A stretch of DNA of 13,474 nt from Candidatus Aenigmatarchaeota archaeon (GTDB lineage Archaea; Aenigmatarchaeota; Aenigmatarchaeia; CG10238-14; SpSt-28): the NCBI GenBank assembly GCA_032249395.1, contig JAVVFY010000013.1, positions 1 through 13,474 on the forward strand, read 5' to 3'. Positions 1 to 3,000 of the stretch are shown piece after piece (position 1 is the first letter of the stretch; every line of letters begins with the position of its first letter). The position numbers were made by a program.

Positions 1-3000
1 ACTAAAACTTGATAATCATTTAAATTATTAGGATTTGCTGTATTATCTATAGTTATTGCTTTTCTATAAATTCCATTAAAATTTTTTACATCAAAAAATC
101 CTCCTGCACAAGAAATTACTTGCTGACCTAAAGAAGAAACTTCTGTAGTTTGAACTTTTGGTAAATTTGTTAAAAAATAATAAACTATTATTCCACTAGC
201 AATAGTAAAGCCAATTAATAAAACGCTTGCTAGAAAAGTGGAAATTGATTTTAGACTCATAAAATAATATTGTTTTTTTAAATAGCTTTTCGCTACTTTT
301 TATGTATATAAAATGAGAAATTGAGAAGAATTAATCCTAAGCCTAAAACTCATTTTTCTTTTTGTTCAATGTTAAGAAAGAATAAACAAATCTAAAAATA
401 AAGTAGTCTCATCCTCAAGGCAAGGTTGATTCTAAATGCCTTAGAGGTGGGTGCCGCCTTGCACACAAAACTAAGGAGGTGATCCAGCCGCACCTTCCAG
501 TTGCCGGGTCGGTAAAGTTAAATCACCTCCTTACTCATCATTCGTCAGAGTCAAGCCATTATATCATCTACTTTACCAACCCTTACGGCTACCTTGTGGC
601 GACTTAGCCCCCCTCGCGGAGCTCCCACTCGACCCTTTTGGGGCCTCGAGGGAGCTCCACTCGGTTGGCTTGACGGGCGGTGTGTGCAAGGGGCAGGGAC
701 GTATTCGGCGAACGTGTTCATGGTGGCAAGATGATCTTTGGCTCTATTTCCTCATCTTTTAATCTGGAGTAGTGCATGCTAATCATTCTCACCTTACCAC
801 CATGATGACGTTCGCCTACTAGGGATTCCGGCTTCACGAGGGCGAGTTACAGCCCTCGATCCGAACTGGGCGCGCTTTTAGGGGATTTGCTCCCCCTTTC
901 GGGGTGGCATCCCATTGTAGCGCGCATTGTGACGCGCGTGTGGCCCAGGGCTTTCGGAGCTTTCGCCGAGAGAGCCAGCAGCTCAGCTCGTATACGGACC
1001 TACCGTCGCCCCCTCCTTCCTCCCACTTATCGCGGGCAGTCCCCCATGAGTGCCTCCCTTCCGGAGAAGGGAATGGCAACATGGGGCGGGGGTCTCGCTC
1101 GTTAACCGACTTAACGGCACGCCTCACGGTACGAGCTGACGATGGCCATGCACTACCTCTCGGCTCGTCTGGTAAGGTCTTCAGCCTGACCTTCATCCTG
1201 CCGTCAGCCCTGGTAAGATTCTCGGTGTTGAGTCCGATTGAACCGCACGTCCCACCCCTTGTGTGCCCCCCCGCCAATTCCCTTAAGTTTGGTGTAGGGG
1301 GAAGCACACCCTCTAGCCAATTCTGGCTTCGCCCCAAATTCACCCTTGCGGGCGTACTCCCCAGGCGGCCCGCTTAACACTTACGCTCCGCCACCGCACG
1401 CTCCCGAAGAGCGTGCGACAGCAAGCGGGCATCGTTTACGGCTAGGACTTTCCCGCATGAGTTAGAGAAAATCCTAGCCATATGGGAGCAAATCATATAT
1501 CAGAGGATTAGATATTCCTCATCTTTAGAATCGGAAGATACCCTAACTCATGTACCGGGGTATCTAATCCCGATTGCTCCCCTAGCTTTCGCCCCTCACC
1601 GTCGGACCCGTTCCAGGCAGCCGCCTTCGCCACTCACCCAGCAGGAGTCATATCATATTGCTAAGCTTTTTAATTTTTTCTGGGTGGAAAATTGTAATTT
1701 TTTCTCGAAAATTACGAAAATTGTTATTGCCTGTTATCCAAAATCTTAGAGAAATAACCTCAATTCCATTCTTTTTTGTTTTTAATTGATCATGTTTGAC
1801 AGTTGATGCCTTTATTCCCAAATCATCCAACATTTGAATTATTTGGAGGAGATATCTTTCTAAATCAGGTCTTAACTCTATAATTTTTGATGCTTTGAAC
1901 ACTATTTGTTTTGAATTACTTGAATCTCTAAAATATCCCTCATCATCAAATATTGCACCAAGAAATGAAGACTTTATTTTATCATCTCCTTTAAAGATCC
2001 ATTCAGGTATTGTAGTTGGTTGAGTAATTTTAGAACCAATTGGCGCGCCTCTTTCTGAAAGAAATTTTCCAACTCTGCTAGGGTATTGATACCTTAATAT
2101 TCCTCCTATAGAAGTCCCTACATTGTATTTGATATTACCGAAAGTTTTAATTACAAGTTCTTTGACTTTTCGTTGAAGAACATTGTTGGAATTTGTATAG
2201 ACGAAGTAATATTTGGTTTTATGGATTGAAGCATCGCCAAAGACATGACCAATCAATCTGGCAATCGCTGTTTCTCTCTCCATAAACTGTTTTTTAATGT
2301 TTATTTTAATTTTCTGACTCCTGCTGACTGGTGGTCCGCATGGGATTAACGGATTTAACCCCTTAGGGTGGATAGTGCAGTCTAAACACTAAAATAGAAT
2401 ACACTCTAGACTATGAGCTAAATCTTAATTCTAAAAATCATTTCATCGCATAAAAGCTCAAAGGTACGCACACTACACTATCCATTACCCCATGCGTACC
2501 GCTGCCCTCTCCCGGTCCCGAGCCTGGTAGTATCCCAGGCAAGCCCTGCAGTTTGCTGCAGGATTTCACCTGGGACACACCAAGCCGGCTACGGGCGCTT
2601 TAAGCCCAATAATCGTGACCACCACTCGGGGCGCGGGTATTACCGCGGTGGCTGGCACCCGTCTTCCCCACCCCTTCCTCGCCCTCCCGTTTTCAGAGGG
2701 CAACAGCCCCAGCAGAGCTGGGGCACTCCGGGTCCCCTCGTCGGGCGTTAGCCCATTGCGAAGGTTTCGCGCCTGCTGCGTCCCGTAGGACCTGGGCTCA
2801 TGTTTCAGAGCCCATCTCCGGGCTCCCACTCTCATGGCCCGTAGGCGTTATCGGCTTGTCGGGCCATTACCCCGACAACAACCTGATACCCCGCAGTCCC
2901 ATCCTCGGGCGGCTACGAACACCCTTTGAGGATAGGGGCCTTCCAGCACCCTATCCCTATGGGGTATTAGCCCCAGTTTCCCGGGATTATCCCCATCGGG

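What a model noticed while it worked through the whole genome (the two positions that open the first line are those of the whole stretch)
586..605. Decoding-site and sarcin-ricin-loop nucleotides of the rRNAs are changed
In 16S rRNA helix 44 the word AAGUCGUAACAAGG reads AAGUCGCCACAAGG (U1498C, A1499C, next to the P-site codon), and in 23S rRNA the sarcin-ricin tetraloop GAGA reads GAAA (G2661A; C11:1256-1269). Boldest reading: the ribosome of this order has a remodelled P site and factor-binding loop, which may be what lets it start on AUU and slip +1 on the aRF1 mRNA; G2661A, at the bond cut by sarcin-type ribotoxins, is a phylum-wide natural variant of a textbook invariant and might protect against such toxins. 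New: neither change is described for archaea as far as I know.
Evidence so far: Call 160: Infernal alignment of C13:474-760 to Rfam SSU_rRNA_archaea, consensus AAGUCGUAaCAAGG vs AAGUCGCCACAAGG at PP *. Call 163: pattern AAGTCGNNACAAGGTAGCCG in 51 genomes drawn from the phylum: 17 hits; the 12 from this order read CC (G000, G052, G056, G057, G082), CA (G003, G007, G008, G016, G017) or UC (G038, G100); the 5 from other orders (G174, G187, G195, G219, G369) read the canonical UA. Call 161: alignment of C11:1015-1330 to LSU_rRNA_archaea (241 bits), consensus UAGUACGAGAGGAAC vs AAGUACGAAAGGAAC. Call 162: 36 of 36 LSU loci of the phylum that hold the word (of 40 scanned) read GAAA. Call 159: the 530-loop word reads GUGCCAGCCACCGCGGUAA (canonical ...GCAGCC...), by motif search [...]
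(Added by a program. Inside this text positions count along the whole contig: contig position 1 is position 1 of the stretch shown here. "Call 12" and the like, gene names such as g00115 and contig names such as C1 are that model's own, and its searches are not shown. The text may have been shortened before it was handed on; [...] marks where a part breaks off. The agent that wrote the report below was given it as the finding of a first reader that could run no searches.)

Follow-up and report, generated by a model that had tools for sequence, protein, structure and literature searches.

The report
Variant ribosome P-site and sarcin-ricin bases
This tiny symbiont-type archaeon really does carry changed letters at two ribosomal RNA sites that textbooks call invariant, but the same changes turn out to be inherited traits of whole groups of such archaea, including cultured Nanoarchaeum, and nothing yet ties them to unusual start codons or toxin resistance.

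Summary
Window 586-605 (minus strand) reads AAGUCG-CC-ACAAGG where archaea, bacteria and E. coli read UA. Numbered on E. coli rrsB, this is U1498C plus A1499C (window 599 and 598). The opposite strand of helix 44 is unchanged. The 23S gene, on another contig, reads GAAA in the sarcin-ricin tetraloop (G2661A).

Both changes are inherited, not errors:
- 54 of 54 genomes of the order that hold the 16S word read CA, CC or UC.
- 25 of 27 such genomes from other orders of the class read UA.
- 68 of 69 and 38 of 38 in two control phyla read UA.

The changes are not special to this order:
- 77 of 77 Nanoarchaeota read UC, CC or AC. Cultured Nanoarchaeum equitans reads AC, and that variant is already visible in a published oligonucleotide.
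- GAAA also occurs in N. equitans, Nanopusillus, YN1 and ARMAN-4.

- aIF1 is present.
- ATT shows no Shine-Dalgarno enrichment.
- Relatives with C1499 start aRF1 on ATG.
- Loss of KsgA/Dim1 co-occurs with the change in the order but is neither necessary nor sufficient.

Best reading: these are tolerated, lineage-fixed alternative states of the P-site pocket and the GTPase loop, and they recur in DPANN archaea. Moderately interesting. This scan had not noted it before.

The parts
474..3949 (-). Single SSU rRNA gene, exons plus at least six insertions. Exons lie at about 3949-3835, 2995-2482, 2363-2316, 1634-1553, 1450-800, 709-580 and 492-474.
   Evidence: cmscan RF01959, 1004.9 bits, over 474-3110. 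nhmmer, with a profile built from 17 control archaea, places model positions 1-115 at 3949-3835. cmscan had forced those positions onto intron DNA. Exon table.
586..605 (-). 3' strand of the top of helix 44, E. coli 1492-1511: AAGUCGCCACAAGGUAGCCG.
   Evidence: Numbering from E. coli rrsB.
598..599 (-). The two changed bases: C1498 at window 599 and C1499 at window 598. The canonical bases are U and A.
   Evidence: 54 of 54 order genomes are non-UA.
671..685 (-). 5' strand of the top of helix 44, ACACACCGCCCGUCA (1394-1408). It is unchanged, so there is no compensating change opposite 1498 and 1499.
493..583 (-). Helix 45 loop region carrying an insertion of about 83 nt.
Evidence: cmscan shows 91 nt where the model has 8. 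I did not re-test the guide with tools.
2640..2658 (-). 530-loop word GUGCCAGCCACCGCGGUAA, with G524A at window 2649.
   Evidence: A524 is seen in 4 of 31 order sequences.
1635..2315 (-). Large insertion (intron) holding a 211-aa LAGLIDADG-type ORF at 1648-2283.
   Evidence: PF14528, 32.7 bits.
2996..3834 (-). Large insertion between E. coli positions of about 143 and 144, holding a 267-aa ORF (2987-3790) with no Pfam family.

Best explanation
The CC at 1498-1499 and the GAAA tetraloop are genuine, vertically inherited states of a working ribosome. They are alternative settings of two 'invariant' sites that have become fixed repeatedly in DPANN archaea.

Shown:
- The gene is the only SSU copy. 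It matches the archaeal model along its full length. Its A-site and P-site neighbours are canonical: C1400, G1401, C1402-C1404, A1492, A1493, G1494-G1497 and A1500-G1505.
- The variant is shared by every SSU-bearing genome of the order.
- On the SSU tree the states run UA to CA (base of the order), then to CC, then back to UC in several branches. UA does not return.

Inferred mechanism:
- 1498 and 1499 lie unpaired in the 2x3 internal loop (C1402, C1403 / 1498-1500) that lines the P-site codon backbone.
- Changing the base identity there alters the pocket's shape and its drug-binding surface without breaking any helix.
- U-to-C at 1498 is a change already known to be viable in a single-operon bacterium.
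- Once 1499 is C, position 1498 drifts between C and U.
- In the SRL, GAAA keeps the GNRA fold and keeps A2660 and A2662, which is the part that GTPases use. The factor site therefore still works.

The changes sit within a 3' minor domain that these lineages have rewired in other ways: no KsgA/Dim1, and an intron in helix 45. I judge the phenotypic effect to be a modest retuning of the P-site and GTPase-centre contacts, not the cause of special start codons.
For: - Reality and numbering.
- Inheritance: the order has 54 of 54 non-UA among the 54 of 118 genomes that hold the word. Other orders of the class have 25 of 27 UA only.
- Background: 68 of 69 UA only in control phylum A. 38 of 38 UA in control phylum B, after dropping 2 hits that are not rRNA.
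- Recurrence: Nanoarchaeota sample has 77 of 77 non-UA (73 UC, 3 CC, 1 AC) among 151 genomes. Scans of 185,579 species found 63 CC, 13 CA, at least 120 UC, 21 AC, 50 AA and 2 GA.
- Not general decay: at 645 positions fixed in E. coli plus 17 control archaea, the order differs at a median 6.8% (n=31). An independent control phylum differs at 5.4% (n=15).
- Of 445 stricter positions, only 116, 864, 1498 and 1499 are order-specific.
- Tree and order of states.
- SRL: GAAA was seen in 135 of the 141 class genomes with the word; 2 show only a GACA word and 4 were unlisted. GAAA 0 of 47 and GAGA 47 of 47 in control phylum A. GAAA in 11 of 76 Nanoarchaeota and in 5 of 5 named DPANN genomes (LSU context checked for two).
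- Tolerance in the laboratory: U1498C is a hygromycin-B resistance mutation of M. smegmatis (Pfister 2003 as cited in bioRxiv 10.1101/2020.01.15.907279, passages). An E. coli strain whose only rRNA carries A2660C/G2661A grows normally at 32-42 C (PMC5829649, passages).
Against: - No functional data exist for any of these ribosomes.
- A1499C has no laboratory precedent that I found.
- UA never returned in 54 + 77 genomes, although 1498 flips often. This hints at selection for, or epistatic locking of, C1499 rather than mere tolerance.
- Other P-site and decoding bases also vary in the class: C1400U in 12 of 40 order and 5 of 18 outgroup sequences, G791A in 6 of 17 outgroup sequences, and several 530-loop changes in family f1. 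A broader functional remodelling is therefore not excluded.
- The tree is an rRNA tree made by FastTree from the same molecule, and kin are not independent.
- About half of the genomes lack an assembled SSU gene.
Confidence: 0.72

Rival explanations
1. The changed P-site pocket is an adaptation that lets these ribosomes initiate on AUU and slip +1 on the aRF1 mRNA. G2661A retunes factor binding to match.
For: - U1498 and A1499 belong to the five-base P-site pocket.
- Removing the N4-methyl of the neighbouring C1402 raises AUU initiation 1.8-fold in E. coli, and loss of its 2'-O-methyl raises +1 frameshifting 1.3-fold (PMC2831307, passages).
- The G000 aRF1 frame has no ATG, GTG or TTG in its first ~127 codons and is preceded by GTG AAT TTA ATT TAG in the -1 frame.
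- G101 (CC) has an in-frame ATT before the conserved N-terminus.
Against: - G146 (UC, same family), N. equitans (AC) and Nanopusillus (UC) carry C1499, yet their aRF1 starts on ATG, as does outgroup G187 (UA).
- Genome-wide, ATT at the head of long open frames is preceded by a Shine-Dalgarno word in 30 of 1514 cases (2.0%). The figure is 97 of 908 (10.7%) for ATG and 3.5% overall. This screen is crude, because Shine-Dalgarno use is weak here.
- aIF1, the start-codon gatekeeper, is present (65.5 bits).
- Co-occurrence on one branch is a single event.
Confidence: 0.1
2. Target-site protection. The helix-44 change blocks small molecules that bind the top of helix 44, such as hygromycin-B-type aminoglycosides. 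G2661A blocks nucleases that cut the G2661-A2662 bond, such as sarcin-type ribotoxins and VapC20-type PIN toxins. This would be useful to cells that live attached to hosts.
For: - U1498C is a known hygromycin-B resistance mutation.
- Sarcin cuts after G2661.
- A VapC toxin that cleaves the SRL exists (title of Winther 2013, seen in the reference list of PMC11633383).
- Variants at 1498 cluster by record title in host-dependent or predatory small-genome lineages: DPANN, CPR, a Bdellovibrionales clade and Mycoplasmatales.
- Two DPANN phyla converge on the same states.
Against: - No assay exists.
- The commonest state, UC, keeps U1498.
- A1499C is not a known resistance change.
- Small-genome lineages also share small population size and fast evolution, which predicts the same clustering.
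- That GAAA resists these enzymes is my recollection of T1-like guanine specificity. It does not come from any call.
Confidence: 0.13
3. Artefact. The variant comes from an assembly or binning error, a contaminant contig, or a decaying rRNA pseudogene, while the real canonical copy sits in the missing 10% of the genome.
For: - Only one copy of each rRNA gene is assembled, and the genome is 89.5% complete.
- G128 carries a second, UA-type word on another contig.
- The gene is riddled with insertions.
Against: - The same states are seen in 54 of 54 genomes of the order and track the SSU tree.
- The match to the archaeal model is full length, and all neighbouring functional bases are canonical.
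- Closed genomes of cultured N. equitans and Nanopusillus show the related states in their only rRNA genes.
- G128 is 1.7 Mb in an order of 0.4-1.3 Mb genomes, which suggests a mixed bin.
Confidence: 0.03

Closest known systems
Nanoarchaeum equitans 16S rRNA helices 44/45 (Seistrup et al. 2017, PMC5389701) and Nanopusillus acidilobi
   Same: - Non-canonical bases at the same two positions: AC in N. equitans and UC in Nanopusillus.
- No RsmA/KsgA/Dim1 (paper passages; G581 has no hit; the order has 0 of 66).
- SRL reads GAAA.
- Host-dependent DPANN cells.
   Different: - They belong to another phylum, so the origin is independent. Other orders of G000's own class read UA.
- G000 reads CC.
- The order passed through a CA state that was not seen in the Nanoarchaeota sample.
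- The paper uses the difference only as a handle to separate rRNAs and does not discuss it as a P-site change (in the passages I saw; figures not held).
U1498C hygromycin-B resistance mutation of Mycobacterium smegmatis (Pfister et al. 2003; seen only as cited in bioRxiv 10.1101/2020.01.15.907279)
   Same: The same base change at the same position, viable as the only rRNA of a cell.
   Different: It is a laboratory-selected single mutation in a bacterium. Here the change is natural, coupled to A1499C, and no drug phenotype is known.
E. coli SRL mutants at 2661 (A2660C/G2661A in a strain lacking all chromosomal rrn operons, PMC5829649)
   Same: G2661A is compatible with growth, and the GNRA-type loop is kept.
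   Different: The E. coli construct is a double mutant, and it is cold-sensitive. Here G2661A stands alone, with A2660 kept, and is fixed across a class.
Loss of C1402 methylation in E. coli (RsmH/RsmI; Kimura and Suzuki 2010, PMC2831307)
   Same: It perturbs the same five-base P-site pocket and gives measurable but small effects on AUU initiation and on frame keeping.
   Different: It changes a modification, not a base, and it acts on the opposite strand. The effects are 1.3- to 1.8-fold.

Membership tests
Archaeal SSU rRNA (Rfam RF01959), functional copy | Full-length match to the covariance model | tested here: met
   1004.9 bits, model positions 1-1478. The true 5' exon was found at 3835-3949.
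Archaeal SSU rRNA (Rfam RF01959), functional copy | Canonical decoding and P-site neighbours (C1400, G1401, C1402-C1404, A1492, A1493, G1494-G1497, A1500-G1505, G926, G1338, A1339, A790, G791, A794) and the anti-Shine-Dalgarno tail | tested here: met
   State table. The 3' end GGAUCACCUCC is seen.
Archaeal SSU rRNA (Rfam RF01959), functional copy | U1498 and A1499 as in the consensus | tested here: not met
   CC. This is the finding itself.
Sarcin-ricin loop (H95 of LSU rRNA) | Bulged-G motif AGUA...GGA flanking a GNRA tetraloop | tested here: met
   AGUACGAAAGGAAC aligned to RF02540 positions of the SRL. GAAA is of GNRA form.
Sarcin-ricin loop (H95 of LSU rRNA) | Tetraloop sequence GAGA (G2659-A2662) | tested here: not met
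   GAAA. GAGA in 47 of 47 control genomes.
KsgA/Dim1-less ribosome maturation of the N. equitans type | No RsmA/KsgA/Dim1 homologue in the genome | tested here: met
   The best PF00398 hit in G000 is 35 bits over model positions 22-87 only. The order has 0 of 66 full-length hits, against 89 of 135 in other orders.
KsgA/Dim1-less ribosome maturation of the N. equitans type | A1518/A1519 unmethylated, with box C/D-guided 2'-O-methylation spanning helices 44 and 45 | not testable with these tools
This needs rRNA mass spectrometry.
Hygromycin-B resistance-type helix-44 mutation | U-to-C at 1498 | tested here: met
Hygromycin-B resistance-type helix-44 mutation | Reduced drug sensitivity | not testable with these tools
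   There is no culture and no assay.

The most novel reading that the evidence does not exclude
C1499 (with U, C or A at 1498) and A2661 are convergent hallmarks of host-attached DPANN ribosomes. Under this reading they are selected, epistatically locked states of the P-site pocket and the GTPase loop. They arose independently in Nanoarchaeota and in one order of Aenigmatarchaeota. They go along with the dismantling of the KsgA/Dim1 checkpoint. They make these ribosomes insensitive to helix-44-binding drugs and to SRL-cutting toxins, and perhaps more permissive at the P site, as with the AUU-UAG leader of aRF1.
Probability: 0.12. Interest if true: 0.75.

Novelty: new variant of a known kind. 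Interest (0 to 1): 0.5.

Why it matters
U1498, A1499 and the GAGA tetraloop are routinely called universally conserved. A 2025 paper says so for SRL nucleotides 2654-2665 (PMC11912913, passages).

This work shows that whole archaeal lineages live with other bases there. That has three uses:
- It gives natural experiments on what the P-site pocket and the SRL really require.
- It identifies cultured organisms (N. equitans, Nanopusillus) in which the variant ribosome can be studied.
- It explains a practical blind spot. The CC variant adds two mismatches to the universal primer 1492R, whose sequence is given in PMC6998087. The G000 site reads AAGTCGCCACAAGGTAGCC.

It does not by itself explain unusual start codons.

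Tried and rejected
1. A first world-wide scan with a 14-base word gave mostly chance hits: only 22 of the 119 loci had rRNA flanks. I replaced it with 22-base words.

2. 'General decay of conserved rRNA positions' is rejected. The order differs at a median 6.8% of positions, against 5.4% for an independent phylum.

3. 'The helix-44 change follows loss of KsgA/Dim1' is rejected as a rule.
- Seven UA genomes of other families lack a strong hit: G195, G217, G219, G245, G247, G250, G298.
- Nine Nanoarchaeota with UC or CC have one.

4. 'Loss of aIF1' is rejected.

5. 'SD-led AUU starts genome-wide' finds no support. This is a weak test.

6. I checked for a compensating change opposite 1498/1499. 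There is none: C1402 and C1403 are invariant in 40 of 40 order sequences but one misaligned row.

7. C1400U against the 1498 state. UC goes with U1400 in 8 of 11 sequences and CC in 4 of 22. This rests on about three independent events, so it is not convincing.

8. 530-loop pseudoknot reading. Three of the four A524 sequences have U at the presumed partner, and G000 has G. Controls also show A opposite G, so my recalled pairing is not firm enough to use.

I used handles instead, as the tool advised.
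Full report
**What is in the window**

The window (G000:C13) carries the genome's only SSU rRNA gene on the minus strand.
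- Infernal places it at 474-3110 with 1004.9 bits. Its first ~115 model positions were forced onto AT-rich DNA.
- A profile built from 17 control archaea finds the true 5' exon at 3835-3949. The gene therefore spans 474-3949.
- The gene is broken by at least six insertions.
- One insertion encodes a LAGLIDADG-type protein.

**The observation**

- Window 586-605 (minus strand) reads AAGUCGCCACAAGGUAGCCG. It aligns at top posterior probability to the consensus AAGUCGUAaCAAGG.
The word starts at 1492, so the changes are U1498C and A1499C.
- The opposite strand (1394-1408) and all flanking decoding and P-site bases are canonical.
- On contig C11 the LSU rRNA reads AAGUACGAAAGGAAC at the sarcin-ricin loop. 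This is G2661A by E. coli rrlB numbering.
- The 530 loop carries G524A relative to the archaeal word.

**Distribution of the helix-44 state**

Each row is a search for AAGTCGNNACAAGGTA.

| Group | Genomes searched | With the word | States |
|---|---|---|---|
| G000's order | 118 | 54 | 28 CC, 11 CA, 15 UC, none UA-only |
| Other orders of the class | 253 | 27 | 25 UA, 1 AA, 1 mixed bin |
| Control archaeal phylum A (centre dropped) | 121 | 69 | 68 UA-only |
| Control archaeal phylum B (2 non-rRNA chance hits dropped) | 81 | 38 | 38 UA |
| Phylum of N. equitans | 151 | 77 | 73 UC, 3 CC, 1 AC; none UA |

- The whole search of G000's phylum covered 371 genomes.
- Record titles of public MAGs that fall in the order, and earlier notes, label the phylum Aenigmatarchaeota.
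- The result for the phylum of N. equitans was the surprise: not one genome there reads UA.
- By record title, the C-containing states are almost all DPANN archaea. They include ARMAN-4, Nanopusillus acidilobi, strain YN1 and N. equitans.
- The AA state sits in CPR bacteria, a Bdellovibrionales clade, Mycoplasmatales-like MAGs, WOR-3 and Segniliparus.

**Course of change within the order**

I built a reference-anchored alignment of 31 nearly full order sequences, 17 outgroup sequences and controls. A FastTree without the two columns followed.
- The order comes out as one clade.
- Family f3 (CA) is sister to f1 plus f6 (CC).
- UC arises inside CC clades several times: in most of f1, in g42, and elsewhere in f6 and f4.
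- The simplest path is UA to CA to CC to UC. The end state is the one that dominates Nanoarchaeota.
- UA is never regained.

**Is the rRNA simply decaying? No.**

- At 645 positions identical in E. coli and 17 control archaea, the order differs at a median 6.8%. Its sister orders differ at 6.7%, and an independent control phylum at 5.4%.
- Of 445 positions also fixed in that second phylum, G000 differs at 10 of the 416 covered.
- Only four of those positions are order-specific: 116, 864, 1498 and 1499.
- Other 'invariant' P-site and decoding bases do vary in the class: C1400U, G791A and several 530-loop bases of family f1.

**The sarcin-ricin loop**

- In 201 genomes of the class, 141 hold the word. 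GAAA was seen in 135 of them. Two show only a GACA word that also occurs elsewhere as a second hit, and four matches were not listed.
- Control phylum A reads GAGA in 47 of 47.
- GAAA is also found in N. equitans, Nanopusillus, YN1, ARMAN-4 and Rehaiarchaeum. The LSU context was verified for the first two.
- GAAA occurs in 11 of 76 sampled Nanoarchaeota; the other 65 read GAGA.
- G2661A is therefore class-wide here and recurrent in DPANN.

**Tests of the interpretation**

- The helix-44 P site 'is shaped mainly by' m4Cm1402, C1403, m3U1498, A1499 and A1500.
- Loss of the C1402 N4-methyl raises AUU initiation 1.8-fold (PMC2831307, passages).

The tests I could run do not support a link.
- aIF1 is present.
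- ATT at the head of long open frames is not enriched for an upstream Shine-Dalgarno word (2.0%, against 10.7% for ATG).
- The aRF1 gene of G000 is indeed odd. It has no canonical start in ~127 codons, a GTG-AAT-TTA-ATT-TAG leader in the -1 frame, and a mini-intein.
- Yet aRF1 starts on ATG in G146 (UC, same family), N. equitans (AC) and Nanopusillus (UC), just as in outgroup G187 (UA).
- C1499 is therefore not sufficient for the odd aRF1 start.

A second idea of my own was that the change goes with loss of KsgA/Dim1, as known for N. equitans (PMC5389701, passages).
- It fits the order: 0 of 66 full-length hits, against 89 of 135 in other orders.
- It fails as a rule. Seven UA genomes lack the enzyme, and nine UC/CC Nanoarchaeota have it.

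**Comparison with what is known**

- U1498C is a viable hygromycin-B resistance mutation in M. smegmatis, and U1498G blocks the first peptide bond in E. coli (both as cited in bioRxiv 10.1101/2020.01.15.907279, passages).
- An E. coli strain with only A2660C/G2661A rRNA grows normally at 32-42 C (PMC5829649, passages).
- The N. equitans AC variant is visible in the oligonucleotide printed in PMC5389701. It explains that paper's 'distinctive AACp fragment' of the host rRNA.
- I found no paper that treats natural 1498/1499 or 2661 variants of archaea as such. The searches were made, read as listings plus the passages named above.
- Huber et al. 2002 is recalled to mention base exchanges in 'universal' 16S regions of N. 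equitans. I did not see it.

**Verdict**

The fact is confirmed and widened. The claim of order-specific novelty is narrowed. The functional story is unproven. The best reading is a tolerated, lineage-fixed alternative state, possibly locked by epistasis, that recurs in DPANN ribosomes.

Noticed in passing
window 2996-3949: The true 5' exon of the 16S gene lies at 3835-3949. cmscan had forced the first ~115 model positions onto intron DNA at 2996-3110. The 839-nt insertion between them holds a 267-aa ORF (2987-3790) with no Pfam family.
   Followed up: partly
window 1635-2315: A 681-nt insertion in the 16S gene encodes a 211-aa LAGLIDADG-type protein (PF14528, 32.7 bits), likely a homing endonuclease. 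Further insertions lie at about 2364-2481, 1451-1552 and 710-799.
   Followed up: partly
G000 genome and 200 relatives: No genome of the order has a full-length KsgA/Dim1 (PF00398): 0 of 66, against 89 of 135 in other orders of the class. Only 19 of 101 sampled Nanoarchaeota have one. This near-universal rRNA dimethylase is known to be missing in N. equitans and N. acidilobi.
   Followed up: yes
window 679 (C1400) and relatives' loci L123-L181: C1400, the base that stacks on the P-site anticodon, is U in 12 of 40 order sequences and 5 of 18 outgroup sequences. G000 itself keeps C.
   Followed up: partly
window 2640-2658 and loci L123-L129: The 530 loop is unusually variable in G000's family. 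G524A is in G000. C518G plus G527A are in genus g3. G156, of G000's own genus, also has U531G.
   Followed up: partly
G000:C1 (L502:1083-2709): The aRF1 gene is one 539-codon open frame with NIKS. It has a mini-intein (about residues 169-316) at the GGQ region and no ATG, GTG or TTG in its first ~127 codons. Upstream lies GTG AAT TTA ATT TAG in the -1 frame, which resembles an RF2-style +1 frameshift leader. G101 has an in-frame ATT instead.
   Followed up: partly
Genome-contig loci L223-L295: U1498A (word AA) is found in 50 species. By record title they cluster in CPR bacteria (Saccharibacteria, WWE3), a set of Bdellovibrionales, Mycoplasmatales-like MAGs, WOR-3 and cultured Segniliparus.
   Followed up: no
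G092, G097, G180, G208, G328, G606, G615, G633, G425, G448: The word AGTACGACAGGAAC recurs, mostly as a second hit beside the true SRL, in DPANN and control genomes. It is probably another conserved element. I did not identify it.
   Followed up: no
G128:C26, G109:C38, G408:C42, G272: Some bins hold a second 16S 3' end with a different 1498-1499 state. These look like mixed bins or small contaminant contigs from other DPANN.
   Followed up: no
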